Positions 9,468 to 37,287 of a DNA stretch of 39,498 nucleotides are shown here, in pieces. The stretch's first letter is position 1; each line of letters starts with the position of its first letter. The stretch comes from a virus, in IMG/VR virus record IMGVR_UViG_3300031949_000096, positions 1 through 39,498 of that record; one strand, written 5' to 3'. The notes beneath the pieces are model-generated. The model made no database searches, was not told where the DNA came from, and worked only from the letters and a program-made list of their open reading frames with translations. A program made the translations under genes and the position numbers.

Positions 9468-9507
9468 ATAATACCTCTAAAACCGTGTCAAGCCCGAGTT
9501 ATCCACA
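9468..9507 (-). promoter_or_regulatory. Leftward (late?) promoter candidate with a perfect DnaA box
   Basis: The minus strand reads TGTGGATAA (9507..9499)-CTCGGGC-TTGACA (9491..9486)-12 nt-TATTAT (9473..9468). The 12-nt spacing between the hexamers is non-canonical. Confidence 0.5.
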
Positions 9508-9553: not shown

Positions 9554-9585
9554 TTGACAAAGTGCATTTGTTATAATGTATATAT
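9554..9585 (+). promoter_or_regulatory. Rightward promoter candidate
   Basis: TTGACA (9554..9559)-12 nt-TATAAT (9572..9577), followed by TGTATATAT. It lies in an AT-rich divergent intergenic region upstream of the plus-strand ORF at 9622. Confidence 0.45.
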
Positions 9586-9621
9586 GCGAGGTCGATTTTA
9601 TTGGCTCTAACTAACACTATT

Positions 9622-9807
9622 ATGCGTGTATATCATGTCAAAGTAGAGTGGCTTTATAAGGGCCGCTACCCGAAGACCTGGGAAGGTCGCGGCCAGGCGA
9701 GCACGCTGCAGGCGGCCATCGCCGCGGCGTCGCGCGACTGGAAGAAGCAGGGGCTCGCGCCCCGGGAGGTCTGCCGCCAGGCGACCGTGCGCGTCACGCT
9801 GGCTTAG
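9622..9807 (+). CDS. Small plus-strand hypothetical protein (61 aa)
   Basis: ATG inside track ORF 9601..9807; MRVYHVKVEWLYKGRYPKTWEGRGQAST... It converges on the HNH gene and overlaps its 3' end by 14 nt. Confidence 0.45.
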   Translation: MRVYHVKVEWLYKGRYPKTWEGRGQASTLQAAIAAASRDWKKQGLAPREVCRQATVRVTLA

Positions 9808-11864: not shown

Positions 11865-12401
11865 TCATAGTGCGAAGAGCGGCGCCGTAGAGGTCTCGAT
11901 GGGTGCGTACTCGCCGATGCGGTCGAGTTGCGTGTCGGAGAGGTCCCAGAAAGGCGTCTCGCGCTTGAGCAGCCCTCCGAAAGTCACACAGTCCTTCTCC
12001 TCCTCGAGGTAGTAGGCCTTATGCCCGGTGGTCTTGTCGATGATGGCGACGCGCGGCACGCTCTCGCCGCGGAGGAACCGTGCGCCCTTTTTGGTGAGTA
12101 GGTAAAAGCCGCGCTCCTCCATCGCGATGAGGCCGTGAAAGCGCGCCCGCGAGAGGTTACCCTCCATCTTGAAAGTCATCCAGCCGCCGGCGACCATGTC
12201 GCGGTAGCTCGAGAAGTCGCTCGCCGGCCGCACCATCTCATTGCCGACATGGACGAGGTTTTGCTTTTTGTCCCGGATGCGGTTGAAGATGGCCAGCACG
12301 ATGAGCGCAGTGCCGCGGTCGAGCGGGAGTGCGTACTCGGTCGTCTGCTTGCAGCAGGAGCACACATTTGGGATAAACTTTTTGCGCTTGGTGAGGCTCA
12401 T
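11865..12401 (-). CDS. Hypothetical protein (178 aa)
   Basis: A clean ORF with an N-terminal CSCC motif. I recognise no domain. Confidence 0.65.
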   Translation of the reverse strand: MSLTKRKKFIPNVCSCCKQTTEYALPLDRGTALIVLAIFNRIRDKKQNLVHVGNEMVRPASDFSSYRDMVAGGWMTFKMEGNLSRARFHGLIAMEERGFYLLTKKGARFLRGESVPRVAIIDKTTGHKAYYLEEEKDCVTFGGLLKRETPFWDLSDTQLDRIGEYAPIETSTAPLFAL

Positions 12402-13342: not shown

Positions 13343-13372
13343 TGTATATCACTATCCCTATAGGGATAGCAA
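13343..13372 (-). promoter_or_regulatory. Promoter candidate whose spacer carries most of an 18-bp perfect palindrome (operator candidate)
   Basis: The minus strand reads TTGCTA (13372..13367)-18 nt-TATACA (13348..13343) with TG two nt upstream of the -10. The palindrome CTATCCCTATAGGGATAG occupies 13352..13369. Confidence 0.5.
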
Positions 13373-13375
13373 GGG

Positions 13376-13394
13376 CCCGGTGTGGATAACCGGG
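13376..13394 (-). promoter_or_regulatory. Perfect DnaA box (13381..13389) embedded in a 6-bp inverted repeat
   Basis: The plus strand reads CCCGGT-GTGGATA-ACCGGG. TGTGGATAA is the reverse complement of TTATCCACA. Confidence 0.6.
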
Positions 13395-18291: not shown

Positions 18292-18338
18292 ACTTGCTGC
18301 TCATTGTACCCCCTGCTCCTGCAGGGCCAGCTGCGCGG

Positions 18339-18391
18339 TGTGGATAACTCATGCTTGACGCGCTTGACAGGTCAAGGGAGTCAAGTAAGAT
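18339..18391 (+). promoter_or_regulatory. Rightward promoter candidate with a perfect DnaA box
   Basis: TGTGGATAA (18339..18347)-CTCATGC-TTGACG (18355..18360)-CGC-TTGACA (18364..18369)-16 nt-TAAGAT (18386..18391). It lies in the divergent region between the KH gene and the plus-strand island. Confidence 0.55.
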
Positions 18392-18436
18392 GGAGGAAGG
18401 ACTGCCGCTTTAGAGCAGCCCGGCAACAAAACTATT

Positions 18437-18952
18437 ATGGGTAAAAAAACAGGAGCAGCTTTTGAGGTCCAGTACCGCGGGTACACCATTATTTTTAACG
18501 AGGGGGAGAAGTGGGAGACCCTGCTCAAGGGTGCGAAGCGCCCGGAGATGCACGAGAATATCAAGCGCGTGCAGGACGCCATCGACCGCTCTCTTCGTGG
18601 GGACTTCGAGCGCCTCCCGGTCTTTATCGAAAAGCGCAACGCAAACGGCTACGGCCGGAGCGGCCGCTACGAGAAGGCGACCATCACCTCCGTCGGCATC
18701 GACCGCGACGTATTTGTGCAGCGTGAGGGCCAAAAGCATACGGAGGCGCATAGCCACTACAACGGCGGCCTCTTCGTACAGAACCCTGCAAACGCCCAGC
18801 TCATCGCCGAGCTTCACGCCATCCAGGACGAGATAGAAACACTCGAGTCGAAGCGCCGCCAGGCCGCAGAAAAGTCCAGCCAAAAGGCCCGCAAGCTCCA
18901 GGTGGTCGATACCGAAAAGATAGTCGCTAAGGTCCTCGGCCCCGATGCGTAG
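18437..18952 (+). CDS. Hypothetical protein (171 aa), first gene of the rightward island
   Basis: A clean ORF with a coiled-coil C-terminal segment. I recognise no domain. Confidence 0.65.
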   Translation: MGKKTGAAFEVQYRGYTIIFNEGEKWETLLKGAKRPEMHENIKRVQDAIDRSLRGDFERLPVFIEKRNANGYGRSGRYEKATITSVGIDRDVFVQREGQKHTEAHSHYNGGLFVQNPANAQLIAELHAIQDEIETLESKRRQAAEKSSQKARKLQVVDTEKIVAKVLGPDA

Positions 18953-19091
18953 CTCGCTCTACAAAGAGCTCCGGGATGAGCGTATCGCTCGCCGGCAAGA
19001 GCGCGGCATCATCATATTTTTCTCGGTCGTCACCGTCCTACTCGCCTACTTGCTACTCATCTGCCTCGCCGCGGAGGGCCGCCTCTTCTAG
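18945..19091 (+). CDS. Small membrane protein (48 aa; not in the ORF track)
   Basis: My own translation is MRSSLYKELRDERIARRQERGIIIFFSVVTVLLAYLLLICLAAEGRLF. It has an 8-nt overlap with the upstream gene and one TM helix. Confidence 0.5.
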   Translation: MRSSLYKELRDERIARRQERGIIIFFSVVTVLLAYLLLICLAAEGRLF

Positions 19092-19093
19092 CC

Positions 19094-19339
19094 ATGAAAA
19101 AGAAAAAAACACTTGAGTCCCCGCGGGCGGCCGCTGCCGGCCACAAGGTCCTCCGGGCGCTGCTCAAAAACGACGGCCGCAGCTACGAAGAAATCGGCAA
19201 GGATGCCGGCATCTCGAAGCAGCGCGTCGGGCAGATAGCGAAGAGGCACGGCATCACCCGAGCACCGGCGCGCGGCGTGATGCAGGTCGCTTGCGTACAC
19301 TGCGGCCGGCAGACTCCTGCGGTGCCCACCATACGGTGA
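19094..19339 (+). CDS. HTH DNA-binding protein (81 aa), candidate transcription regulator
   Basis: RSYEEIGKDAGISKQRVGQIAKRHGI is a sigma-region-4-like or Cro-like HTH. The last 28 codons or so overlap the rusA 3' end on the opposite strand. Confidence 0.6.
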   Translation: MKKKKTLESPRAAAAGHKVLRALLKNDGRSYEEIGKDAGISKQRVGQIAKRHGITRAPARGVMQVACVHCGRQTPAVPTIR

Positions 19340-19688
19340 CCCGGATGCGCTTGTTGCTCGAGCGCACCTGCCGCAATAACACCCCCGCCACCTCGGCGGG
19401 GGTGTCGTCTTTCAGTACCCCGGCGTGGCGCAGTCCGTCCTCCACCATTTTCGCCATCGAGGAGAGGTTGAGGTTGTCGAGCGGCTTGCCCGGTATCTCG
19501 AAGAGGTACTCCACGAGCGGCAGCGGGTAGCTCGTGACCGGCGGCATCGACGTGCGCCGCACCGCCTCCCGGACCGCCAGGTAGAACGCCTGCTCGAGCG
19601 GGTATCGCTTCATCGCGTGCTTGCGGTAGAAGACGTTGGTCGAGACCTTCTCCGGGAGCTCGAGAGTGAGTTGGGGGGTCATGTGCAT
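19254..19688 (-). CDS. rusA: RusA-family Holliday junction resolvase
   Basis: 144 aa. GKPLDNLNLSSMAKMVEDGLRHAGVLKDDTPAEV matches the RusA D-x-DN...K...D...DD catalytic pattern. Confidence 0.75.
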   Translation of the reverse strand: MHMTPQLTLELPEKVSTNVFYRKHAMKRYPLEQAFYLAVREAVRRTSMPPVTSYPLPLVEYLFEIPGKPLDNLNLSSMAKMVEDGLRHAGVLKDDTPAEVAGVLLRQVRSSNKRIRVTVWWAPQESAGRSVRKRPASRRAPVLG

Positions 19689-19706
19689 ATTCTCTCTTAT
19701 ATAAAA

Positions 19707-19721
19707 CTACTATTACTATTA
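19707..19721 (-). repeat. Trinucleotide array TAA-TAG-TAA-TAG-TAG (DnaA-trio-like)
   Basis: The plus strand reads ctactattactatta. On the minus strand the array is preceded by CCCCACCCC and followed by TTTTATATAAGAGAGAAT. Confidence 0.5.
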
Positions 19722-19809
19722 GGGGTGGGGATAGCTCGGATAACTCACTTTTGCGTTGCCCTTCATATGTTTTTCAGGAAGTGCCGCTGGGGACAACGTG
19801 GGACCCGAC

Positions 19810-19829
19810 TGTGGATAAATTGTGGATAA
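19810..19829 (-). promoter_or_regulatory. Two perfect DnaA boxes in tandem, 11-bp register
   Basis: TGTGGATAA occurs at 19810..19818 and again at 19821..19829. Confidence 0.75.
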
Positions 19830-19830
19830 C

Positions 19831-19865
19831 AAAAGGGGAGCAAATGGCTATACCACTTGCTCCCC
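19831..19865 (-). terminator. Intrinsic terminator downstream of the DnaA-domain-IV gene
   Basis: The minus strand reads GGGGAGCAAGTGG-TATAG-CCATTTGCTCCCC, a 13-bp stem with one G-U pair, followed by TTTTGTT. Confidence 0.75.
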
Positions 19866-19890
19866 AGGTGTTTCACGCGAAACCCCCAGC

Positions 19891-19912
19891 TTATCCACAG
19901 GGGTTACCCACA
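19891..19912 (+). promoter_or_regulatory. Perfect DnaA box plus an 8/9 box, in the opposite orientation to the 19810 pair
   Basis: TTATCCACA at 19891..19899 and TTACCCACA at 19904..19912. They end 2 nt before the stop codon of the 19915..20247 gene. Confidence 0.7.
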
Positions 19913-19914
19913 GT

Positions 19915-20247
19915 CTAAAGCAGGCCGTGGAGCTCGTTTTTGCACCGGGTTCCTATGCCGATGGCGCGCTCGAGCAGCTCCTCGCTCGCCCGGACCTGGG
20001 CGATGCCGTTGAGCACGGTCGTGTGGTCCTTCTCGTAGAAGCGACCCATGCGGGCGGCACTGTACTGCAGCAGGGTGCTGCCGAGGTACCACAGGATAAA
20101 TCGGGCCTCCACGCGCTCCTGGAAGCGCCCAGGCACGCGCATCTCCTCGAGAGGCACTCCGCACTCCCGGGCCACTATCGACTCCAGGCGGAGGAAGCCA
20201 GGGGGCACGAACGCCGGAGAGTTGGACCGCTCCTCGGCGCCACTCAT
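19915..20247 (-). CDS. Stand-alone DnaA domain IV (DnaA-box-binding HTH) protein, 110 aa
   Basis: RVEARFILWYLGSTLLQYSAARMGRFYEKDHTTVLNGIAQVRA aligns by eye with the DnaA C-terminal domain (..ARQIAMYL...IG..FG.RDHTTVLHA..KI), including the DHTTV signature. There is no AAA+ region. The start forms an ATGA overlap with the upstream gene. Confidence 0.8.
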   Translation of the reverse strand: MSGAEERSNSPAFVPPGFLRLESIVARECGVPLEEMRVPGRFQERVEARFILWYLGSTLLQYSAARMGRFYEKDHTTVLNGIAQVRASEELLERAIGIGTRCKNELHGLL

Positions 20248-22397
20248 ACGGAGTAGCCCTGCAGGCGCTGTATGGGGCTGCCGTCGGCCCGGAGCAGCAG
20301 CATATCGCCTTTACCGAGTAACTTCTCTGCCCCCTCCTGGTCCACGATGACGATGCTCGCCGCGGCGCTCGCGGTGCGGAAGGCCACGCGCGTGGGGAAG
20401 TTCGCCTTAATCGCCGAGTCGACTATTTTGGCGATGGGGTGCTGGGTGGTGAGGATGAGGTGGATGCCCGCGGCGCGCGCCTTTTGTGCCAGCAGCAGGA
20501 TGGCCGTGCGTATCTCGCTCGAGACGTCGGTCTTTATCGTGCGGAAGCGGGTCTCACCTTTGCGCGGCCCGGAGAGATACTCCCCATCCTCGACCTCCTG
20601 CAGGTCCTCGTGGCCCTGCGCAATGAGGTCGCCATACTCGTCGATGAACACGAAGATATAGGGCAGCTTGCCGCCGGCTGCGCGGTATGCCTCGAGGTTT
20701 TTTACCTTGGCCTTTTTGAGCGTGGAGTAACGGTCCTCCATCTCGCCGACCAGGTGCTTGAGCGTTTTGTAGATGCCCATGATGTCGTCGCTGTAGTCGA
20801 CCTTGGGGTATTCCTCGAACTCCCCGAGCTCCACCTTCTTCGGGTCCAGGAGCACGAGCTCGCAGCCCGGCGTGCCGAGCAGCTGGTGGACCCACGAAGA
20901 GATGCACACCGATTTGCCGGAGCCGGTGGTGCCGGCGACCAGTGTATGCGGTCCCTGCCGCAGGTCGAGCGTTTGCATCACGCCGGAGATGTCGACGCCG
21001 ACCGGGAGCTCGAAGCCTTTGGCCTTCGGCGCTTTGCCGGGGAACGTGCGGACCTTGTTGGGCAGCTCGAAGCCCACGAGCTCGGAGTCCGGGATGGGCG
21101 CCAGGACGCGGATGCCGGTGGTGCCGGTCACTTGCTCCAGGTCCTTGGCGAACTTCTCTATACGGCTCATTTTGAGGCCTACGCCGGCCTCGAAGCGATA
21201 GAGCGTGACCGAGCCGCCGGTCACCTCACTGTGGAACTCGACCGAGAGGCCGTGCTCCGCGAGCTTCATTTTGATGCGGTCGGGGATAGTCATATTTTTA
21301 TAGTTAAGGGTAGAGCCGGAAACGAACTTGGCCGCGACCGTCTCCAGGTACTTCTTCATCGAGCCGTCCTGCTGGATACGCTTTTTGAGGAAGTCGGTGA
21401 TATTGTCGACCTTCATCGCGGCCATTTGTTTGGCGCGCTCTTCGTCGACGTCGAGCCGGTGGATGTACGCCAGGACCGAGACCTCCCGGTCAAAGATGGC
21501 CATGAGGTTCGGCACATACACTTGCTTGCCGAGGAGCGCGTCGGTCATGTCTTGGTAGAAGCGGAAGAAGAGCTCGAAGGCCAGCGGCACCTCGTCGAAC
21601 ACTATCTCGTACTCCCGGGTCTGCGGCTCCTTCGGGTCTTTGTTGGGGGTGATTTTGTGCTCCGCGAAAATCATCGAGTAGGGCGCCTCGCCAAGCTCCG
21701 CGTACACCGTCATGTAGTTGAAGATGGCCTGCAGGAGCTTGCCGCCGTCGATAGCCTCCGGGTCCGAAAACTTGGTAGTGAACTTGTGGTCTCGGATGCG
21801 GATGCGCTTGTCGCTCTTTTGCCGATACACCAGGTCGGCCACTGCTTTGAGCGGCACCGGCATCACCTTGCCGTCCACCTCGACCTTGTGCTTGAGCATT
21901 TTTTCTACCAGCAATATCTCCATCTTTGCCGGGTCGAAGTTGAGGTCCTTGAGGTAGCCGAGGAACGCGAACGCGAAGCGCTCCTCGAGCTTGGCGCGGT
22001 CCTGCGTTGTTGCGCCCCACTCGATGAGCCCATCGGAGAAGCTCGCGAGATACGCGCGGCCGGCCTCGAAGGCCAGGCGCATCGCCTCGCCATCATCGTT
22101 AGCCGGCACCGGCACCGCATCGTTGCCGCCGAAGTACGTCTGCAGGCCGAAGTGCGCCGCGCGCCCGAGCACGTTGGTGGGCGAGCTCGTCGTCTGCAGC
22201 TGGTCGCCGTTGATATTGTTGACCTTGAACATAAAGGGGTTAGTCGAAAACTTCATCCAGCTGGAGTAGCTGTAGCTCTCGAGAGGGAACCCCTGGAAGG
22301 CCGGCTTAATCTCACGCCTCGATAGTACCTTCGGGAGCGGCATCTTCGTCCGCAGCTTCGACCGCCGCGGCGCCTTTGCCTTTTTTGTTTTTGTCAT
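20244..22397 (-). CDS. Fusion protein: N-terminal RecB/Cas4-type PD-(D/E)XK nuclease plus C-terminal FtsK/SpoIIIE-type DNA translocase ATPase
   Basis: 717 aa. Nuclease motifs are GRAAHFGLQ, ADLVY, IRDHKF and QAIFNY (aa ~78-228). FtsK motifs are VTLYRFEAGVGLKMSRI..APIPDSELVGFELPN, Walker A GTTGSGKS (aa 489-496), Walker B IFVFIDEYGD, LILTTQHP and RVAFRTASAAASIVIVDQEGAEKLLGKGDML. The start overlaps the recT 3' end (86 nt, or 32 nt if Met19 is used). Confidence 0.8.
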   Translation of the reverse strand: MTKTKKAKAPRRSKLRTKMPLPKVLSRREIKPAFQGFPLESYSYSSWMKFSTNPFMFKVNNINGDQLQTTSSPTNVLGRAAHFGLQTYFGGNDAVPVPANDDGEAMRLAFEAGRAYLASFSDGLIEWGATTQDRAKLEERFAFAFLGYLKDLNFDPAKMEILLVEKMLKHKVEVDGKVMPVPLKAVADLVYRQKSDKRIRIRDHKFTTKFSDPEAIDGGKLLQAIFNYMTVYAELGEAPYSMIFAEHKITPNKDPKEPQTREYEIVFDEVPLAFELFFRFYQDMTDALLGKQVYVPNLMAIFDREVSVLAYIHRLDVDEERAKQMAAMKVDNITDFLKKRIQQDGSMKKYLETVAAKFVSGSTLNYKNMTIPDRIKMKLAEHGLSVEFHSEVTGGSVTLYRFEAGVGLKMSRIEKFAKDLEQVTGTTGIRVLAPIPDSELVGFELPNKVRTFPGKAPKAKGFELPVGVDISGVMQTLDLRQGPHTLVAGTTGSGKSVCISSWVHQLLGTPGCELVLLDPKKVELGEFEEYPKVDYSDDIMGIYKTLKHLVGEMEDRYSTLKKAKVKNLEAYRAAGGKLPYIFVFIDEYGDLIAQGHEDLQEVEDGEYLSGPRKGETRFRTIKTDVSSEIRTAILLLAQKARAAGIHLILTTQHPIAKIVDSAIKANFPTRVAFRTASAAASIVIVDQEGAEKLLGKGDMLLLRADGSPIQRLQGYSV

Positions 22398-23037
22398 CTT
22401 TTTTTAGGGCGCCCATTTTAAGACCCGATGCCTCGACCTGGGCGGGTGCTTTGTTAATGCGAGACTCCGGGACTACTTGGTGCGAGTCGAACTCTTCGGC
22501 GAGGTAGATGCCGGAGAGGTCTTCGGGAGCAGCTTTGCGCAGCGCCTGCATCTCCGCGACTTTCGCTATCATGGTGCGAGGCTTGAGCTCCCACATACTC
22601 TTGATGTAGGCGCCGTTCTTTGTGCGGCCGGCTTTAAAGTATTCCTCGAAGTAAACGGTGGCGGTGTAGCCGCCCGGGTGGCCATCTTTTTTGAAGACAG
22701 TGACATCGCACGAGACTATTGTTTTGCCATCCGGCGCCATCTCGTAGACTGGTTTGCTGGTGCCGTTGACACCGCCGCGCGCGCCGCGCTTGCGAGCGAA
22801 GTCGATGGAGGTGATGAGACTGTAGCCGGTGTCACCGAAGGGCAGCGCATACACGTCCTTTTGCAGGAAGTGCTTGAACGTAAACCCGCGGATGAGGCCC
22901 TCGAGTATGGCCTGCTTCATGACCACGTCGGTGAGACCTTTGAAGGTGGTGGCGAGGAGCGCGCGCCCGACTGCCGGGTCCGCGAGCTCGCGTTTTACCT
23001 CTTCATTGAAGAGGGCTACTTGGGATTTTTCTTCCAT
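22312..23037 (-). CDS. recT: RecT/Red-beta-superfamily single-strand annealing protein
   Basis: 241 aa. DVYALPFGDTGYSLITSIDFARKRG and MWELKPRTMIAKVAEMQALRKAAPE resemble RecT/Bet signatures. It is adjacent to a nuclease gene. Confidence 0.7.
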   Translation of the reverse strand: MEEKSQVALFNEEVKRELADPAVGRALLATTFKGLTDVVMKQAILEGLIRGFTFKHFLQKDVYALPFGDTGYSLITSIDFARKRGARGGVNGTSKPVYEMAPDGKTIVSCDVTVFKKDGHPGGYTATVYFEEYFKAGRTKNGAYIKSMWELKPRTMIAKVAEMQALRKAAPEDLSGIYLAEEFDSHQVVPESRINKAPAQVEASGLKMGALKKDDKNKKGKGAAAVEAADEDAAPEGTIEA

Positions 23038-24788: not shown

Positions 24789-27700
24789 CTATTCGCTCTG
24801 CTGCGTGAGCAAGTAGGTCACCTGCTTCTGCACCTCTTTGGTGAGGATGCCCTTCTCGACGTACTCGGTCCATAGTTTTGCCTTGGCTTCCTTGCTTCCG
24901 AGCGCATCGAACTCTTCTACTATCATCTTTGCTCGCGTGCCGTTGGCGACACCCATCTCCAGGAGCATACGGTCGGTGTAGTTGAGATTTTTCTTCTCCG
25001 CTTTGGCGATGGCGGCCACTTTTGCGGCCAGGTCCTTGTCGACGGCGTTGAGTTCGGACCAGCGCGCGGCCGCCTCCTCGGTCGGGAGATTTTTCATTTG
25101 CTGATAAGAGTCCTCCGCTTGTTGGTCGAGGATAAATCGCTCGCGGCTTTGGTCCATGAGCACGTCTTTATACTTCTCGTATTTGTCGGTGCCGGCGCCC
25201 ACCTCTTCCTCGGTGCGCGCCTTAAAGAAGCGCGAGACGATAGGCACGTCGCGCAATGCCGGCGCCTCGAGCTTGGCCGCGGCCGAGACCGTGTTGGCAG
25301 TCTTGGTCGCGGCCCGGCCGGCGCCGCCGATGAGCTGCTCGTAGGTGTAGTTGATGTCCGCCGGCGACACCTCGACGCCGATGCCGGAAAGACCGCGCGA
25401 GAAAGCGATGGCGATTTGGCCGGAGCTTGAGTCTTTGAGTGAGTCGAAATACTGGATGCTCGCCGGCGCGTGGCGGTCCCAGTCCGCTCGGATTTTTCCG
25501 CCGTGCCACCCCTGGTTTCGGCCGAGCTCCACCGGGAGGTCGATGACCGTCGGCGTGAGGGCGGAGATGAGGTCGGTACCGCCCGCTGGGTTGTAGCCCT
25601 CGATGACGGAGACCATTGCCGCGCCCATGGCGTCGACGATGCCTTTGCTCTTGCCGTTGGCTAGGTCCGAGAGCTGGTCGACCATCACTTTGATTGGCTT
25701 GAGGCCCCAGGATACTGGGATAGTTATGTAGCGCACGCCGCTGCCGTCGGCCGACGGTATCATTACCGATAACGCATTGAGGCGGTCCCAGGTGGTCACC
25801 TTGTCGCGCCAGTTGGGGTCGACGTAGTCATTCCACTCGTTGACCGCAGCCACCGGCACGGCGACCGAGAGGACCGTGGCCGCGGCGACCTTCGGGTTTT
25901 TCATGGCCATGAGCATCTTCGCCGAGCCCTGGATGCTGGCGTTGCTGAACATATAGAAAGCGTTGATGATGGGCCCGGCCTTACCTGTCTTGTTGAAGTT
26001 GACCGACGCCTCTTTGGCCAGGCGTGCTGCGCGCTCGCGCGAGGCACCATTTTTAAGCGCCTCGCGGTAGACGGAGAGGCGGGTCGAGTCCTCGAAAATA
26101 GTGTTCCAGTCGTCGACGAGCTCCACCATTTTCTTCCATGCAGCGCGCGGGTTGGAGCGGTTGAGTTTGCGGAGCGCCTCCATGTCGAGGTCTACCTGCA
26201 CCCGGGTCGAGAGGCCGAGGCCCCCGGTGGTGCCGCCGTCCTCGCGCATTTGCTTGTAGAGCATGGCGCCGGCGGAGTCTTTGCCGCGGATGAGGTCGAG
26301 CACCGCGCGCTCGTTCTCGAGGCGCAGCTCCCGGCCGACGACTTTGACCGCGCCCCTTGCGCCGAGTTCGCCCTGGGCGCCGGCATAGACCATCACCTCC
26401 TGGATATCACGGACCTTGTTGGCGAAGGCGAACTCCGGATTAAAGCGGGTCTGCAGGCCGCTGTAGAAGCGCGTAATGGCCCCTACGCCGCGTATAAGAC
26501 TCGCGAGCTTCTCCCGGCTCACCCCGCGCAGCGCGGCCGCTAGGTTGGGGTCCTCGATGCGAAGGTAGACCGGCTTGCCTTTCTCCCGGAGCACGAGCAC
26601 CTGCGGGTCGTTTATCTGCTCGAGGATGATGCGGCCCTCCTTGCCGGCGGCCTTCTCCGCGGGTGATACGAAGCCGCGGCCGATGGGCTTGGGGTGTATC
26701 TCTTTGAAGGTATCGCCGAGGATGTCCTGGTTGTCCCGGACCATCTTGAGCGTCGAGAGGTCCACGCGGTTTTTCTCCGCGCGGATGACCGCCTGCTCGT
26801 AGTTGGCCACCACGTTGTTGAGGATGTCGGCGACCTCGCGCTGGCTGCCCTTGGCCGCCTTTATGCCGGTGCTCTTTACGTCGAAGCCGCGGCCGAGTGC
26901 CGAGCCCATGTCCTCCTCGCCCTCGAAGACGCGGTTGAGTGGGATGTGGGTCTTGTATCTTGTGCGCAGCGTCTGATAGAGCTCCTCGGAGATGACCTCG
27001 CCGTCGCGCAGCACGTCGAGCGTGCGGTTGTTAAATTGCTGTACGTCGTCGGCTATGCGCATCACCGCGGCGCCATGCTTGCTTCCCTCTATCTGCGCCT
27101 TTGCCGCGCGGGCCTCCGCGGTAGTGATGCCGGCGGCGCCTTCGCCGATAGCAGCATTGCGCTCCGGCGCGTGCCGGGCAATGAGGTAACGGTTGACCTC
27201 GTCGGTGAGCTGCTTGTCGGAGAGCCCGGTCTCTTCGGCCAGGCGCACGATGTCGCGGTCGATGTTGCGCGCGGCATCCTTCGCTTCCTCGAGGCGATAG
27301 CCTACCCGGCCATGGAAGAGAACCTCCGCCTGGTAGGGGTCGGAGGCATCGCTGATTTTGATGTTGGGATTGTCGACGAGCTGCTTGACGCGGAGCATAT
27401 CGTCCTGCACTTGCTCGCGCATCCAGTTCCAGGCGTTGCCGACCTTGTGGCGGAAGTTATTAAAGAGAGGCTGCTTGCTCGGGTCCTTGGGACCGGCTGG
27501 GGGTATCGAGCTCTCCACTTCGGAGCGCATGGTAGCATCAGTAGTACCGTCGAGGCGCTTAGAAAATGACTCACCAGACTGCAAAACACCACGGAGCCCT
27601 GGCTCTTTTAGCGCTTCTTTTCCTAGTTTTTTTCCTTGGCTACTATTCGGGAGTGGACGGGTCGCGTCCTCACCCGGAGCGCCCGGAGGGGCGTCCTTCG

Positions 27701-29498
27701 CTTGAGCGCTAGGTGCTACTTCTTCTTGCGCTTTTGCTGGTAGTCCTTCTGCTCCTTCGCGTTGGAGTCCATTTTTTGCAGGTGCGTCGGACTTCCCCAG
27801 GAACCCTTCGGCTGTTTTGCGGGAGATGGAGCCTTCGGAGAGGGCCCTTGAGACGCGGGACTGGAGTTGTTTTTTGAGCTCGTCATTAGACCCAGTATAC
27901 CCCTTTTCCTTGAGAAAGGCAAGGGGGTCGGCCACCGGCTTCGCGAAGTCGCCGGAGTTGTCTATGAGTGAAAAATTGACACGCGGGTCGTCGGCATACT
28001 TGGCCAGGAGCTCGGCAAACACCTCCGCGGACCCCTGGTGAGACTTGATGTGGTAGTCGACCGGGAGCGTGCGGCCGCTGCCGAGCTCGTCCTCCATGCG
28101 CGTGGCGCGGTTGAGCGCGTTGTCGAGCGCCTTTTCTATATCGTTGTATACATAGCCCACCTGCACGTCGAAGCCGTTGTCGAGTGCCTTGCCGATTTGG
28201 TTGGTCGCCGCGTTTTTGTTGGCGAGGTTGCCGTCGAAGACGATGGGGAACTCGTCGAGGTCCGTGCCGAGCGCGCGCAGTGCCGTGCTCTTGCCGGCGC
28301 CGGTGCCGCCGGCCGAAAAGAAGACCGTGTTATTGCCGACCCCCTGCTTGGTGGTGAGGAGCTCGTCGTAGACGCGGTTGGCCAGGTAGCCGGAGGGCGC
28401 TTGCACGCCGTTTGAAAGTGAGCGGTCCGCCTGGTACGCCGGGAAGAGCTCCTTGGCCTCGTCGGCCGAGACCACGTTGCCGTTTTTTTCGATATACTCC
28501 TGGACCAGCTTGGGCTGGTTGAACTCGATGGCCATGGCGGCATCATCCTCGATAGCGCGCAGCTCCGGGGAGAGCTCCGGGAGGCGGGCCACCGGCGAGG
28601 AGCCGTTGCGCGCAGCCTCCGCCAGGATTTTCATAACCTCCTCCTCGTCCTTGGTGGCGGCAATGCGCACGGCCGCGTCGTCGATGACGTCCTGCGCCAT
28701 CTTCGGGAACTCCTTGCGCAGCGTGCCTTTGATAGCATCCTCGCCGCCCTCTGCGGCGAGCTTGATGGCGGTCCTGCGTATCGGCCCGGTCATGCCGAGG
28801 GTCGCGAAGTCGACGACCGAAAGAGCGGCGTCGAGGTTTTCAAAAAAGCCGGAGCCGCGGATGGCCGCCTTCTCGACGTCGTTGAGTTTGAGCGCCTCGA
28901 CCGCCTTGGTGCGCGCGGTGGAGCTCGGGATAGTGTCGGCGACGGAGATGGCGGTGGCGCGGTCCGGGTCGATGCCCGCCTCTAGTAGGGAGTCATACCG
29001 CTCGGTCACTTTTTCCTCGCGCGGCTTGAGCGTGGACCCGCCGAAGGGGAGTATATCGAGCGGCCGCGCGCCGCCCGGAGAGATGGGGTTGAGCGCGGTG
29101 CGCTGCAGCTGGTCGCCCTGCTCGCCGAGGAAGCCCGAGACGGTGCGGCCGATGCTGCCGCCAGTTATCTCGTCGAGCTTTTCGAGCCCGGACTGGAAGA
29201 TGCTTTTTTTCTCCTTGGGTGCGGCCGAGATGGTCGCCGGCTCGAGCTCGCGGAGCGGTTGGTTGAGCTTGTCTTCTTTGGGTGCGATGACCGCGGGCGT
29301 GTACCCGAACTTCTCCCGGAGAGAGTCGGTGATAGGGGTCGGACTCTTTGCTTGCGATGCAGCAGAATAGGCGGCGACCTTGGGAGTCACCGCCAGAGTG
29401 GAGCCGGGCATCGTCGTGCTCATGGGCAGCAGAAGAGGCGCACTGGTGGCCGTTGGCGCCACCCCGAAACGCTTGCGGAGTTCTGCTGCAGTAGCCAT
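24789..29498 (-). CDS. Giant polyvalent virion/internal (ejection?) protein, 1,569 aa
   Basis: The largest ORF, lying between the internal-protein and lysis genes. It has a zeta-toxin-like P-loop domain (aa ~340-535). The C-terminal ~900 aa include YKTHIPLNRVFEG, which resembles the PLxRFG domain of phage polyvalent proteins. Confidence 0.7.
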   Translation of the reverse strand: MATAAELRKRFGVAPTATSAPLLLPMSTTMPGSTLAVTPKVAAYSAASQAKSPTPITDSLREKFGYTPAVIAPKEDKLNQPLRELEPATISAAPKEKKSIFQSGLEKLDEITGGSIGRTVSGFLGEQGDQLQRTALNPISPGGARPLDILPFGGSTLKPREEKVTERYDSLLEAGIDPDRATAISVADTIPSSTARTKAVEALKLNDVEKAAIRGSGFFENLDAALSVVDFATLGMTGPIRRTAIKLAAEGGEDAIKGTLRKEFPKMAQDVIDDAAVRIAATKDEEEVMKILAEAARNGSSPVARLPELSPELRAIEDDAAMAIEFNQPKLVQEYIEKNGNVVSADEAKELFPAYQADRSLSNGVQAPSGYLANRVYDELLTTKQGVGNNTVFFSAGGTGAGKSTALRALGTDLDEFPIVFDGNLANKNAATNQIGKALDNGFDVQVGYVYNDIEKALDNALNRATRMEDELGSGRTLPVDYHIKSHQGSAEVFAELLAKYADDPRVNFSLIDNSGDFAKPVADPLAFLKEKGYTGSNDELKKQLQSRVSRALSEGSISRKTAEGFLGKSDAPAKNGLQREGAEGLPAKAQEEVAPSAQAKDAPPGAPGEDATRPLPNSSQGKKLGKEALKEPGLRGVLQSGESFSKRLDGTTDATMRSEVESSIPPAGPKDPSKQPLFNNFRHKVGNAWNWMREQVQDDMLRVKQLVDNPNIKISDASDPYQAEVLFHGRVGYRLEEAKDAARNIDRDIVRLAEETGLSDKQLTDEVNRYLIARHAPERNAAIGEGAAGITTAEARAAKAQIEGSKHGAAVMRIADDVQQFNNRTLDVLRDGEVISEELYQTLRTRYKTHIPLNRVFEGEEDMGSALGRGFDVKSTGIKAAKGSQREVADILNNVVANYEQAVIRAEKNRVDLSTLKMVRDNQDILGDTFKEIHPKPIGRGFVSPAEKAAGKEGRIILEQINDPQVLVLREKGKPVYLRIEDPNLAAALRGVSREKLASLIRGVGAITRFYSGLQTRFNPEFAFANKVRDIQEVMVYAGAQGELGARGAVKVVGRELRLENERAVLDLIRGKDSAGAMLYKQMREDGGTTGGLGLSTRVQVDLDMEALRKLNRSNPRAAWKKMVELVDDWNTIFEDSTRLSVYREALKNGASRERAARLAKEASVNFNKTGKAGPIINAFYMFSNASIQGSAKMLMAMKNPKVAAATVLSVAVPVAAVNEWNDYVDPNWRDKVTTWDRLNALSVMIPSADGSGVRYITIPVSWGLKPIKVMVDQLSDLANGKSKGIVDAMGAAMVSVIEGYNPAGGTDLISALTPTVIDLPVELGRNQGWHGGKIRADWDRHAPASIQYFDSLKDSSSGQIAIAFSRGLSGIGVEVSPADINYTYEQLIGGAGRAATKTANTVSAAAKLEAPALRDVPIVSRFFKARTEEEVGAGTDKYEKYKDVLMDQSRERFILDQQAEDSYQQMKNLPTEEAAARWSELNAVDKDLAAKVAAIAKAEKKNLNYTDRMLLEMGVANGTRAKMIVEEFDALGSKEAKAKLWTEYVEKGILTKEVQKQVTYLLTQQSE
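27894..28481 (-). other. Zeta-toxin-like P-loop kinase domain within the 1,569-aa protein
   Basis: TVFFSAGGTGAGKSTALRALG (Walker A at 28287..28313), then IVFDGNLANK, then DVQVGYVYNDIEKALDNALNRATRM. The order and spacing look like zeta/AAA_33-type kinases. Confidence 0.6.
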
Positions 29499-35897: not shown

Positions 35898-36338
35898 TTA
35901 CTTGTGGAGCACCCAGGCTGCGAGTGCGACGAGCCAGCCTTTGAACGCGCCGGTGATGATAGAGAAGGCCACCAGGAGCGCTGCGAGGCCCAGGACGAAG
36001 CGGGAGAGCCACTTGCCGCCTCCGTTGACCAGCTGCGCCGAGAGGGCCAGTTTGTCGTAAAAGGCGACCACCGGCTGCACGTCTTTTTTAGTAGCAAACT
36101 TCGGGATGAGGTGACCTGTCTCCGGGTTGCGCTTCACCTCTCCCTCGTCGTCGAGTTCGACGAACAATTTAGTGAGGTCTGCGAGGTCTTGCTTTGTGGC
36201 CAAAGTATCCATCTTCTCCGAGCCTGCCTGAAACGCCAGGGCGTCTGCCTTCTCGTGGTTGCGCATCCACGAGTGGATGGACCCGAGCTCCCTGGCGGTC
36301 GACATCTTTTTCTTTTTTAGGGGAGCTCGTTTTTTCAT
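35898..36338 (-). CDS. Membrane protein (146 aa) with two C-terminal TM helices
   Basis: The C-terminus reads ...KWLSRFVLGLAALLVAFSIITGAFKGWLVALAAWVLHK, and the N-terminus is basic. Confidence 0.6.
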   Translation of the reverse strand: MKKRAPLKKKKMSTARELGSIHSWMRNHEKADALAFQAGSEKMDTLATKQDLADLTKLFVELDDEGEVKRNPETGHLIPKFATKKDVQPVVAFYDKLALSAQLVNGGGKWLSRFVLGLAALLVAFSIITGAFKGWLVALAAWVLHK

Positions 36339-36344
36339 AGGTCC

Positions 36345-37283: not shown

Positions 37284-37287
37284 GGTG

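What the first reader, a model, noticed from the sequence alone, without database searches (positions are those of the whole stretch)
19689..19914. oriC-like origin architecture next to a dnaA-fragment gene, in a phage with no recognisable replication proteins
Seen in sequence:
- A 226-bp non-coding gap lies directly downstream of the DnaA-domain-IV gene and directly upstream of rusA.
- It holds two perfect TGTGGATAA boxes in 11-bp register (19810 and 19821).
- It also holds a perfect TTATCCACA (19891) and TTACCCACA (19904) in the opposite orientation. The two pairs therefore face each other across a 13-bp-stem terminator hairpin.
- On the left side, read on the minus strand, are two degenerate boxes: TTATCCGAG (19743..19735) and CTATCCCCA (19734..19726).
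- These are followed by a CCCCACCCC cluster, five consecutive TA(A/G) triplets (19721..19707), and one of the most AT-rich stretches in this GC-rich genome (19706..19689).

Established: DnaA box(es), then a GC cluster, then 3'-GAT-5' DnaA-trios, then an AT-rich unwinding element is the core unwinding module of bacterial oriC (Richardson et al. 2016). dnaA-oriC adjacency is also typical of bacterial chromosomes.

Inference: the phage carries an oriC mimic fired by host DnaA. I could not recognise any phage initiator, helicase, loader, primase or polymerase in the window. I am not certain that the box-to-trio orientation and spacing match the bacterial rule.
Basis: partly seen in the sequence, partly recalled or inferred. 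Interest (0 to 1): 0.85.

Follow-up and report, generated by a model that had tools for sequence, protein, structure and literature searches.

The report
Phage-borne copy of bacterial oriC
Next to a gene for only the DNA-binding domain of DnaA, this phage carries a small but complete copy of a bacterial chromosome origin, sitting where related phages keep their own replication initiator, so it probably starts replication with the host's DnaA.

Summary
The 226-bp gap (19689..19914) holds three perfect DnaA boxes and one with a single mismatch, arranged around a strong terminator.

Read on the minus strand, it continues with two weak tandem boxes, a CCC spacer, trios CTA ATA GTA ATA GTA (3'-GAT TAT CAT TAT CAT-5' on the + strand) and an AT-rich stretch. 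This is the order and orientation of the bacterial basal unwinding system (BUS). It is the only such hit in the window, and no shuffle matched it (0 of 300).

- **Bacterial match:** the core TATCCNCNNCCCTAATAGTAATA occurs in 36 bacterial genome loci. In 15 it lies just downstream of a DnaA-encoding ORF; in the four whose flanks I checked with Pfam it lies between dnaA and dnaN.
- **Other phages:** six other phage lineages carry the same DnaA-domain-IV gene followed by a 200-265 bp box-rich gap. Five have a strict BUS. One low-GC lineage has (CTA)4 trios instead.
- **Position:** relatives without this gene carry O-like or DnaD-like initiators in the same slot.
- **Replication genes:** Pfam and PHROGs find no helicase, primase, polymerase or initiator.

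Firing by host DnaA is inferred, not shown. GC skew is uninformative. The role of the 110-aa protein is unresolved.

The parts
19915..20247 (-). Gene for a stand-alone DnaA domain IV protein (110 aa). Its ATG overlaps the stop of the upstream PDDEXK-FtsK gene (ATGA).
   Evidence: Pfam Bac_DnaA_C E 6.5e-12. Matches M. tuberculosis DnaA domain IV 3PVP at E 3.4e-5. The RDHTTV signature and the Arg that I align to E. coli R399 are conserved in the family alignment. Nearest relatives are all about 100-125 aa, none full-length DnaA.
19904..19912 (+). DnaA box TTACCCACA (1 mismatch). It is inverted relative to the gene direction and starts 3 bp after the stop codon.
   Evidence: In the 85%-identical relative L006 this box is a perfect TGTGGATAA.
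19891..19899 (+). Perfect DnaA box TTATCCACA, inverted relative to the gene direction.
   Evidence: Conserved in L006.
19828..19865 (-). Intrinsic terminator of the RecT / PDDEXK-FtsK / DnaA-IV operon: a 14-pair hairpin plus UUUUGUU. It is the centre of a larger imperfect palindrome formed by the two strong box pairs.
   Evidence: -28.4 kcal/mol, z = -6.3; inverted repeats I1, I2, I5, I6.
19810..19829 (-). Two perfect DnaA boxes (TTATCCACA AT TTATCCACA on the minus strand) in 11-bp register, pointing toward the unwinding module.
   Evidence: Same-orientation pairs in 11-bp register also occur in L007 and L008.
19788..19796 (-). Weak DnaA box TTGTCCCCA (2 mismatches), same orientation.
19726..19743 (-). 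Tandem weak boxes next to the trios: TTATCCGAG (3 mismatches) and CTATCCCCA (2 mismatches), in 9-bp register.
   Evidence: The equivalent tandem pairs in L007, L008, L190 and in bacterial oriCs are in 8-bp register and closer to consensus.
19723..19725 (-). GC spacer (CCC) between the last box and the first trio.
   Evidence: The same G/C-CCC spacer occurs in 36 bacterial loci.
19702..19722 (-). DnaA-trio array: minus strand CTA ATA GTA ATA GTA GTT TTA, equal to + strand 3'-GAT TAT CAT TAT CAT CAA AAT-5'. The first five trios fit the strict 3'-NAT-5' form.
   Evidence: Best BUS hit of the whole window on both strands. Only strict hit, and 0 of 300 shuffles reach 5 trios. TAATAGTAATAG is unique in the window.
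19689..19706 (.). AT-rich stretch, the candidate DNA unwinding element. It runs into the ribosome-binding region of the next gene.
   Evidence: 19681..19720 is the third most AT-rich 40-mer of the genome.
19254..19688 (-). Downstream gene, weakly RusA-like (144 aa).
   Evidence: PHROG RusA-like E 3.6e-4, no Pfam hit. The counterparts in L007, L008 and L192 have weak or faint Pfam RusA hits.
20244..22397 (-). Upstream partner: a 717-aa fusion of PD-(D/E)XK nuclease, FtsK alpha domain and FtsK ATPase. It is the conserved anchor of the module.
   Evidence: Pfam. Homologues in L001-L004, L007, L008, L129-L152, L190, L192.
22312..23037 (-). RecT-family single-strand annealing protein, first gene of the module.
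   Evidence: Pfam RecT E 1.6e-12; PHROGs.
11865..12401 (-). 178-aa protein with a CxxC motif and a winged-helix-like fold. In L007, L008, L190 and L192 it lies downstream of the gap (immediately after it in L192, after one small ORF in the others). Here it sits 7.3 kb away.
   Evidence: tblastn 40-52% identity; context; AF2 pLDDT 87.5 with no PDB fold match better than E 0.26.

Best explanation
The gap is the phage's origin of replication, built as a small copy of a bacterial dnaA-dnaN-type oriC.

**Proposed mechanism (inferred):**
1. Host ATP-DnaA binds the strong boxes at 19810-19829 and 19891-19912.
2. It oligomerises onto the weak tandem boxes at 19726-19743.
3. It captures the trio strand, the window's + strand 3'-GAT TAT CAT TAT CAT-5' (19708-19722).
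4. It melts the AT-rich stretch at 19689-19706 and recruits the host helicase and replisome.

The phage therefore needs no initiator, loader, helicase, primase or polymerase of its own. RecT, the PDDEXK-FtsK nuclease/motor and the RusA-like resolvase would then serve later recombination-dependent replication and processing.

**Where the module came from:** the adjacent 110-aa protein is an old derivative of the DNA-binding domain of DnaA, probably acquired together with the origin. It keeps the residues that read the DnaA box, so it should bind the same boxes. It has no AAA+ domain and no helicase-recruiting domain, so it cannot fire the origin itself. Its most likely role is as a modulator. 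It could autoregulate the module, or compete with host DnaA at strong boxes such as those of the host oriC and so shift initiation toward the phage.

**Shown:** the anatomy, its statistical uniqueness, its identity with bacterial oriC cores, its conservation across phage lineages, and its position in the initiator slot.

**Inferred:** DnaA binding, unwinding, replication start, and the role of the 110-aa protein.
For: 1. **All BUS elements are present in the right order, orientation and spacing.** The published search rules are. B. subtilis incC is inactive if box #6 alone or boxes #6/7 are reversed (PMC6669920). A 4-5 bp GC-rich element directly follows the box and precedes the trio (PMC8235120). 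C. difficile gives the same top-strand trio reading.
2. **The hit is unique.** It is the best BUS hit of the window and the only strict one. None of 300 dinucleotide shuffles reaches 5 trios, and 296 have no hit at all. About 295 kb of control loci give no hit with 4 or more trios and only two with 3.
3. **The core matches real bacterial origins.** TATCCNCNNCCCTAATAGTAATA is found in 36 bacterial genome loci, where I estimate about 1 by chance. In 15 of them an ORF carrying DnaA domain IV ends about 90-260 bp upstream on the same strand. Pfam confirms DnaA upstream and DnaN downstream in two Saccharibacteria loci, one Erysipelothrix locus and a Bdellovibrionales MAG locus.
4. **The layout matches too.** In these oriCs inverted boxes (where present) come first, after the dnaA stop, then direct boxes, then a tandem pair, a CCC spacer, TAATAGTAATA and AT-rich DNA.
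5. **Other phages carry the same module.** L007, L008/L009, L190/L191, L189, L192 and L194 have the same DnaA-IV subfamily gene, 30-37% identical to the window's where I measured it (L007, L008, L189, L190). Each is followed by a 200-265 bp gap rich in boxes. In L007, L008, L189 and L190 the top strict BUS hit, and in L194 the only one, lies in that gap on the gene strand. L006, an 85% relative, keeps the first two boxes.
6. **The trio sequence varies while the architecture stays.** L189 (GC 30%) has ATATCCACA, a 14-bp spacer and CTACTACTACTA. That fits a DnaA-trio array better than a fixed promoter motif.
7. **The slot argument.** In seven of nine relatives without DnaA-IV, a recognisable replication initiator lies downstream of the PDDEXK-FtsK gene, and in five it is the very next ORF. 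These are O-like, DnaD-like or 'replication initiation protein' PHROGs, with E from 1e-6 to 4e-47. No such gene appears in the precomputed Pfam tables of the loci that carry DnaA-IV, nor in the window.
8. **The protein should read DnaA boxes.** It keeps R41 (aligned to E. coli R399) and D74-H75-T76 (D433-H434-T435) (residue mapping is my own alignment).
Against: - There is no experimental or read-depth evidence.
- Cumulative GC skew is monotonic. After detrending, its extremes are at 12.9 and 23.6 kb, not at 19.8 kb. Skew here follows the coding strand.
- In this window the two boxes next to the trios are poor (2 and 3 mismatches). They sit in 9-bp register rather than the 8-bp register of the bacterial and other phage copies.
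- A protein with domain IV alone should compete with DnaA for these same boxes, so its benefit to a DnaA-fired origin is not obvious.
- L192 has boxes but only a loose BUS.
- The AT-rich stretch is short, about 18-25 bp, and overlaps the start region of the next gene. The trio region could also act as a -10-like promoter element.
- The host is unknown.
Confidence: 0.6

Rival explanations
1. The gap is a transcription-control region only. The boxes are operators for the 110-aa protein, or for host DnaA acting as a transcription factor. The protein autoregulates termination or read-through at the end of its operon and controls a promoter whose -10 lies in TAATAGTAAT. No replication starts here.
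For: - All six perfect boxes of the window are intergenic. The three outside the gap sit near promoter-like sequences.
- L007 and L008 also have a box just upstream of recT.
- The four strong boxes bracket the operon terminator as an imperfect palindrome.
- The trio region is AT-rich and lies 18-45 bp upstream of the next start codon.
Against: - The consensus scan finds no sigma-70-type promoter in 18800-20600.
- No conserved -35 accompanies the element, and TAATAGTAATAG occurs nowhere else in the window.
- The element matches the oriC core at bacterial dnaA-dnaN loci.
- L189 replaces TAATAG.. with CTACTACTACTA while keeping the order box, spacer, trios, AT-rich.
- This reading does not explain why the module replaces the initiator in the slot.
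- It is not exclusive of an origin function, since bacterial oriC regions also carry promoters.
Confidence: 0.2
2. The gap is a decoy for host takeover. The phage copy of oriC titrates host DnaA, and the 110-aa protein blocks the host oriC. Host initiation stops, while the phage replicates by recombination-dependent replication using RecT, the nuclease-motor fusion and RusA.
For: - Recombination genes flank the element.
- A domain-IV-only protein is expected to act as a competitive inhibitor at DnaA boxes (inference).
- Phage or prophage proteins aimed at DnaA are reported: YfdR (PMC4776307) and YqaH (bioRxiv 10.1101/2020.11.18.388090), known to me here from the titles and abstracts listed.
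Against: - A titration site needs only boxes. It does not need the full, correctly oriented unit of tandem boxes, GC spacer, trios and AT-rich DNA that is conserved in several lineages.
- Sibling phages carry true initiators in the same slot.
Confidence: 0.12
3. The element is a functionless remnant of captured host DNA, or a chimeric assembly.
For: The element resembles a piece of a bacterial chromosome.
Against: - The gene is translationally coupled to a phage gene through an ATGA overlap.
- The same arrangement occurs on independent contigs from different samples.
- The protein family is old and diverged but keeps its DNA-contact residues.
- The BUS is maintained while the surrounding sequence has diverged.
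Confidence: 0.03
4. The DnaA-box cluster anchors the incoming or replicating genome to membrane-bound DnaA, as proposed for the phage T5 injection-stop signal.
For: A cluster of 8 DnaA boxes 'reminiscent of oriC' is conserved in T5-like phages and was proposed to bind membrane DnaA (bioRxiv 10.1101/866236).
Against: - This genome has no large terminal repeat (only a 127-bp assembly overlap), and the cluster is internal.
- Trios, GC spacer and AT-rich DNA are not needed for anchoring.
- The T5 idea is itself a hypothesis.
Confidence: 0.03

Closest known systems
Bacterial chromosomal oriC of the dnaA-dnaN type with a basal unwinding system (B. subtilis incC, C. difficile oriC2, and the Saccharibacteria, Erysipelothrix and Bdellovibrionales loci L156, L181, L183, L171 found here)
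   Same: The layout is the same. Inverted boxes follow the dnaA stop, then direct boxes, then a tandem box pair, a 3-5 bp GC spacer, 3'-NAT-5' trios and AT-rich DNA, all in the direction of the dnaA-type gene. The core TATCCNCNNCCCTAATAGTAATA is the same.
   Different: It sits on a 39-kb podovirus-like phage genome. The upstream gene encodes only domain IV (110 aa), not a full DnaA. The downstream gene is RusA-like, not dnaN. The boxes next to the trios are more degenerate and in 9-bp register. A strong terminator sits inside the box cluster.
Phage and plasmid origins that use host DnaA as an auxiliary factor (P1 oriR, pSC101, F, RK2; from my own knowledge)
   Same: Mobile replicons with DnaA boxes in the origin that depend on host DnaA.
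   Different: Those origins are built around a plasmid- or phage-encoded Rep protein and its iterons. Here there are no iterons other than DnaA boxes and no Rep-like gene, and the unwinding module is of the chromosomal type.
O-like and DnaD-like 'replisome organiser' modules of lambdoid and Firmicutes phages
   Same: Same genomic slot, directly downstream of recT and the PDDEXK-FtsK gene, in sibling phages L002, L134, L135, L138, L141, and a few ORFs further downstream in L001 and L004.
   Different: The window has no such protein. The slot holds DnaA-IV plus the box-rich gap.
DnaA-box clusters noted in other phages: the T5 injection-stop region (bioRxiv 10.1101/866236) and the software-predicted oriC of phage G (PMC12484599)
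   Same: oriC-like DnaA-box clusters have been described in phage genomes.
   Different: As far as searches show, neither comes with a DnaA-domain gene, with evidence of conservation of a full BUS, or with an initiator-slot argument. T5 was proposed to use the boxes for injection arrest, not replication.
Stand-alone Bac_DnaA_C (PF08299) small proteins
   Same: The 110-aa protein is one of them. 324 representatives score E below 1e-3, and nearly all the listed ones are about 90-240 aa.
   Different: Only the subfamily of the window protein comes with boxes and a BUS. Twelve viral loci with more distant members (24-37% identical to the search profile's first sequence) have no box cluster and no BUS, and L010 and L005 sit in other contexts.

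Membership tests
Bacterial oriC basal unwinding system (BUS) | A DnaA box with at most 2 mismatches, reading 5'-TTATCCACA-3' on the strand where the trios read 5'-NTN-3'; optionally a second box with at most 4 mismatches | tested here: met
   CTATCCCCA (2 mismatches) and TTATCCGAG (3 mismatches) on the minus strand, 19726-19743. Rules from PMC8287927. Orientation checked against C. difficile oriC2.
Bacterial oriC basal unwinding system (BUS) | A spacer of 0-16 bp between box and first trio, typically a GC-rich element of about 4 bp | tested here: met
   CCC, 3 bp. The upstream box lies 12 bp from the first trio, inside the reported 10-13 bp peak.
Bacterial oriC basal unwinding system (BUS) | At least three consecutive DnaA-trios (3'-NAN-5', consensus 3'-GAT-5') | tested here: met
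   Seven NAN trios. The first five are NAT and the first is GAT. 0 of 300 shuffles match.
Bacterial oriC basal unwinding system (BUS) | An AT-rich unwinding region directly beyond the trios | tested here: met
   19689-19706. The third most AT-rich 40-mer of the genome covers it. It is short.
Bacterial oriC basal unwinding system (BUS) | DnaA- and ATP-dependent strand separation and origin activity in vivo | not testable with these tools
   Needs the biochemical strand-separation assay and replication assays.
Full-length DnaA initiator | Domain I (helicase recruitment), AAA+ domain III and domain IV | tested here: not met
   Only Bac_DnaA_C is present, at residues 23-85 of 110. The bacterial neighbours of the same motif have DnaA_N, Bac_DnaA and Bac_DnaA_C.
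Pfam PF08299 Bac_DnaA_C | Score above the gathering cut-off and the RDHTT(V/I) signature | tested here: met
   45.7 bits against 31.5. KDHTTV is present, H75 is invariant and T76/T77 nearly invariant.
Iteron/Rep origins with auxiliary DnaA boxes (P1 oriR type) | A Rep initiator gene and its iterons next to the DnaA boxes | tested here: not met
   The only direct repeat in 19600-20000 is the DnaA-box pair. No Rep-like protein by Pfam or PHROGs.
Lambda-O / DnaD-like replisome-organiser origin | An O-like or DnaD-like initiator with the origin in or beside its gene | tested here: not met
   None in the window. Present in sibling phages at the same slot.
Sigma-70-type promoter | -35 and -10 hexamers with 16-18 bp spacing | tested here: not met
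   0 promoter-like sites in 18800-20600. An activator-dependent or non-canonical promoter is not excluded.

The most novel reading that the evidence does not exclude
A lineage of small tailed phages has discarded the usual phage initiator. It replicates as a DnaA-fired minichromosome, having captured the 3' end of a bacterial dnaA together with the complete oriC unwinding module. It kept the orphan DNA-binding domain as a weapon that occupies the strong boxes of the host origin, so that host DnaA, helicase and replisome are redirected to the phage copy.
Probability: 0.3. Interest if true: 0.88.

Novelty: new variant of a known kind. Interest (0 to 1): 0.78.

Why it matters
- **A third route to replication.** Phages are thought to start replication either with their own initiator or by recombination. 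A phage that carries the host chromosome's own unwinding module would be a different solution.
- **A portable origin.** It would be a natural, roughly 230-bp, portable DnaA/BUS origin. That makes it a good test of which oriC elements are sufficient for DnaA-dependent firing.
- **Escaping host control.** It raises a testable question about how a parasite escapes or exploits the controls that limit DnaA to one firing per cell cycle.
- **A candidate inhibitor.** The stand-alone domain IV protein is a candidate natural inhibitor or re-router of DnaA.
- **A side result on bacterial origins.** Nearly the same BUS core, TATCCACA-GCCC-TAATAGTAATA, marks origins in Chitinophagaceae, Erysipelothrix, Saccharibacteria and other Patescibacteria, and a Bdellovibrionales MAG. 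This could help locate oriC in uncultured lineages.

Tried and rejected
- **Direct similarity to known phages.** blastn of 18300-22400 against 50,697 GenBank phages found nothing. tblastn of the 110-aa protein against the same set also found nothing.
- **DNA pattern in viral contigs.** TATCCNCN{4,9}TAATAGTAATA gave 118 hits, but none lies beside a DnaA-IV gene. They are chance hits and I discarded them.
- **Metagenome scan with the DnaA-IV alignment.** The scan with the 717-aa family returned 24 relatives, none with DnaA-IV. These served as controls and for the slot argument.
- **Exact-sequence look-ups.** They failed for the window's own DnaA-IV (P0001), for the RusA-like ORF and for P0017.
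- **PHROGs.** There is no family for the 110-aa protein.
- **GC skew.** It is monotonic and follows the coding strand, so it says nothing about an origin.
- **Recent capture from a host dnaA.** Rejected, because the nearest relatives are short proteins and identity to cellular domain IV is only 24-31%.
- **Rickettsia plasmid 'DnaA-like' proteins.** Not relevant, because their similarity is to DnaA domain I.
- **The 178-aa co-travelling protein as a hidden helicase or loader.** The model is confident, but no PDB match scores better than E 0.26 and the resemblance is only winged-helix-like.
- **Other searches.** No Rfam family and no tRNA in the window. No paper in the library describes a phage DnaA-trio origin or a phage stand-alone domain IV.
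- **Host identification.** Not achieved.
Full report
**Setting.** The window is a circularly assembled genome: a 127-bp terminal direct repeat gives 39,371 bp. It belongs to a tailed phage, with a major head protein, a large terminase, an SU10-type adaptor and a 1569-aa polyvalent protein. Nearly all genes are on the minus strand. Read along that strand, the local order is:
- RecT (22312..23037)
- a 717-aa fusion of PD-(D/E)XK nuclease, FtsK alpha domain and FtsK ATPase (20244..22397)
- a 110-aa protein that is only DnaA domain IV (19915..20247; Pfam Bac_DnaA_C, E 6.5e-12)
- the 226-bp gap
- a weakly RusA-like ORF (19254..19688)

The domain-IV gene starts inside the stop codon of the upstream gene (ATGA).

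Three perfect DnaA boxes and one with a single mismatch are at the stated positions. The window has 10 boxes with at most one mismatch against 2.7 expected, and no shuffle reaches 10. All six perfect boxes in the genome lie in intergenic gaps. Boxes with at most two mismatches are about 16 times denser in the gap than in the genome. The hairpin between the two strong pairs is a strong minus-strand terminator, at -28.4 kcal/mol and z = -6.3. The two pairs form an imperfect palindrome around it.

**Orientation and spacing fit the bacterial rule.** Three papers give the rule.
- The BUS search rules ask for a box with at most 2 mismatches, a spacer of 0-16 bp, at least three trios with a central A on the bound strand, and optionally a second box with at most 4 mismatches (PMC8287927).
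- B. subtilis incC is inactive if box #6 alone or boxes #6/7 are reversed (PMC6669920).
- A GC-rich element of 4-5 bp usually sits between the box and the trios, and 3'-GAT-5' appears as 5'-CTA-3' on the complementary strand (PMC8235120).

C. difficile oriC2, read in the dnaA-to-dnaN direction, is 5'-CACC TAC TAC TAT TAC TAC TAT GA-3'.

On the window's minus strand the sequence is TTATCCGAG CTATCCCCA CCC CTA ATA GTA ATA GTA GTT TTA, followed by AT-rich DNA. The layout is therefore right. The strand that DnaA would hold is the window's + strand.

A scan of both strands with the published rules puts this site first, with 7 trios against 5 for the next best. With the stricter 3'-NAT-5' form it is the only hit in the window. 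None of 300 dinucleotide shuffles reaches 5 trios, and 296 have no hit at all.

**The element matches real chromosome origins.** I searched one genome per bacterial species for TATCCNCNNCCCTAATAGTAATA. The scan returned 36 loci, where I estimate about one by chance for uniform base composition. All show the same arrangement: a tandem pair such as TTATCCNNN overlapping TATCCACA, then G/T/C-CCC, then TAATAGTAATA, then AT-rich DNA.
- In 15 loci an ORF carrying DnaA domain IV ends about 90-260 bp upstream on the same strand.
- Pfam confirms DnaA upstream and the beta clamp DnaN downstream in two Saccharibacteria loci, one Erysipelothrix locus and a Bdellovibrionales MAG locus.
- In the one Chitinophagaceae locus whose flanks I checked (Flavihumibacter L169) the motif lies elsewhere, between surA-like and nadA.

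In these origins the region between the dnaA stop codon and the motif has the phage layout: inverted boxes (where present) come first, then direct boxes, then the tandem pair.

**The module is conserved in other phages.**
- *The protein family.* The closest relatives of the 110-aa protein are stand-alone proteins of about 100-125 aa, not full-length DnaA. 324 representatives score E below 1e-3, and the best is 60% identical. The family keeps the RDHTT(V/I) signature and an Arg that I align to E. coli R399. Identity to cellular domain IV is only 24-31%. This is an old derivative, not a recent fragment.
- *Same arrangement elsewhere.* Members of the same subfamily on contigs from other samples show the same arrangement. 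L007, L008/L009, L190/L191 and L192 have RecT, the PDDEXK-FtsK fusion, DnaA-IV and then a 204-265 bp gap. L189 has a Rad52-type recombinase and a 209-aa ORF instead of the RecT pair, then DnaA-IV and a 223-bp gap. L194 comes from the viral collection.
- *The gaps.* In L007, L008 and the window the gaps are 10-16 times enriched in boxes. In L007, L008, L189 and L190, inverted boxes follow the stop, direct boxes come later (some pairs in 11-bp register), and a tandem or single box lies next to a GC spacer, trios and AT-rich DNA.
- *BUS scan.* In L007, L008, L189 and L190 the top strict BUS hit, and in L194 the only one, is in that gap on the gene strand. L192 has only a loose version. L006, 85% identical in protein, ends inside the hairpin but keeps the first two boxes, both perfect there.
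- *Variation in the trios.* L189 (GC 30%) has ATATCCACA, a 14-bp spacer and CTA CTA CTA CTA. The architecture is conserved while the trio sequence changes. That is expected for a DnaA-trio array and not for a fixed promoter motif.
- *Controls.* 228 kb of related phages without DnaA-IV give two hits with 3 trios and none with 4 or more. Twelve viral loci (about 67 kb) with more distant DnaA_C-like proteins have no hit and no box cluster.

**Position argues for a replication role.** The PDDEXK-FtsK gene anchors a large group of metagenomic phages. In seven of nine relatives without DnaA-IV that I scanned, a recognisable initiator lies downstream of that gene, and in five it is the very next ORF.
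- O-like initiators in L135 and L138
- DnaD-like helicase loaders in L134, L001 and L004
- 'replication initiation protein' PHROGs in L002 and L141

E-values run from 1e-6 to 4e-47. The window has none of these. It also has no helicase, primase or polymerase by Pfam or PHROGs. The precomputed Pfam tables of the other loci that carry DnaA-IV list none either. The DnaA-IV gene plus box-rich gap therefore replaces the initiator module.

**Most likely mechanism (inferred).** Host ATP-DnaA binds the strong boxes and extends onto the weak tandem boxes. It engages the + strand trios, opens the AT-rich stretch and recruits the host helicase. The phage then needs no replication proteins of its own. Its recombination genes would serve later stages. 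The 110-aa protein should bind the same boxes but cannot unwind DNA or recruit a helicase. I think it is a modulator, either autoregulating the module or competing with DnaA at strong boxes such as those of the host origin. This step is the weakest part of the account.

**Rivals.**
- *Transcription control only.* This reading has some support. The other perfect boxes sit near promoter-like sites, and L007 and L008 have a box upstream of recT. It does not explain the identity with oriC cores, the change of trio sequence in L189, the uniqueness of the motif or the slot replacement. The consensus scan finds no promoter in the region. The two functions could also coexist.
- *Decoy that titrates DnaA.* A decoy would not need trios, a spacer and AT-rich DNA.
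- *Functionless capture or chimeric assembly.* The translational coupling, the independent contigs and the conservation argue against it.
- *Membrane anchoring.* An idea of the kind proposed for phage T5 does not need a BUS.

**What does not support the origin reading.**
- GC skew is monotonic. After detrending, its extremes are at 12.9 and 23.6 kb. The skew follows the coding strand, so the test is uninformative.
- The boxes next to the trios are the weakest of all the copies and sit in 9-bp rather than 8-bp register.
- The host is unknown, and nothing has been tested experimentally.

**Novelty.** DnaA-dependent origins and the BUS are well known in chromosomes. DnaA boxes are also known as auxiliary sites in P1 and in plasmid origins (my own knowledge). 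DnaA-box clusters have been noted in T5 and predicted by software in phage G. I found no description of a phage module that combines a stand-alone DnaA domain IV gene with a complete BUS of the chromosomal type. I also found no homologue of the protein among 50,697 deposited phage genomes. I rate it a new variant of a known kind, of high interest to people who work on replication initiation and on host takeover by phages.

Noticed in passing
window 9499-9507(+), 13381-13389(-), 18339-18347(-): Three more perfect DnaA boxes, each alone in an intergenic gap. The 18339 box sits between divergent genes, beside a TTGACA-16-TAAGAT promoter-like site on the + strand. Together with the gap, these account for all six perfect boxes of the genome, none of them in coding sequence.
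   Followed up: partly
window 9555-9583 (+) and ORF 9601-9807 (+): A perfect TTGACA-17-TATAAT promoter with a TG extension, on the + strand of a genome transcribed almost entirely from the minus strand. It points at a 68-aa ORF or possibly a small RNA. No Rfam family matches.
   Followed up: no
window 13352-13369: The perfect palindrome CTATCCCTATAGGGATAG lies 11 bp from the 13381 DnaA box. Its half-site resembles the weak box CTATCCCCA of the gap.
   Followed up: no
window 11865-12401 (-); L007 6871-7422; L008 6944-7489; L190 5969-6472; L192 5598-6134: A conserved 178-aa protein with an N-terminal CxxC motif and a winged-helix-like core travels with the DnaA-IV module. In L192 it lies directly after the gap; in L007, L008 and L190 one small ORF lies between. 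The AF2 model is confident (pLDDT 87.5) but has no PDB fold match better than E 0.26. A homologue also sits beside RecT/YqaJ in L193, which shows no DnaA-IV in the stretch fetched.
   Followed up: partly
window 20244-22397 (-): A 717-aa fusion of PD-(D/E)XK nuclease, FtsK alpha domain and FtsK ATPase, always next to RecT. It anchors a large group of metagenomic phage contigs with GC from 30 to 63% (L001-L004, L129-L152). Its role is unknown; it could be a recombination exonuclease with a motor.
   Followed up: partly
L153-L188 (bacterial genomes): Nearly the same oriC core, tandem boxes then G/T/C-CCC then TAATAGTAATA, is shared by Chitinophagaceae, Erysipelothrix, Saccharibacteria, Moraniibacteriota, Parcubacteria and a Bdellovibrionales MAG. 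In Flavihumibacter it lies between a surA-like gene and nadA rather than next to dnaA.
   Followed up: partly
window 18437-19339 (+): A small plus-strand island of three ORFs (171 aa, 48 aa, and an 81-aa HTH protein resembling sigma-70 region 4). The last ORF overlaps the 3' end of the RusA-like ORF by 86 bp, so one of the two gene models may be too long.
   Followed up: no
L192 5347-5363: In this relative a tandem DnaA-box pair in 8-bp register (CTATCCACATATCCACA) lies inside the 3' end of the DnaA-IV coding sequence. The gap itself has only a loose BUS.
   Followed up: no
window 24789-29498 (-): A 1569-aa protein with a Zeta-toxin-like kinase domain and an LPD38 domain, a 'large polyvalent protein' of the kind thought to be injected with the DNA.
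   Followed up: no
window 36000-37500: The only sizeable stretch where GC skew turns negative. It coincides with a very GC-rich, glycine-rich ORF (36345-37283, Pfam Gly_rich_2).
   Followed up: no
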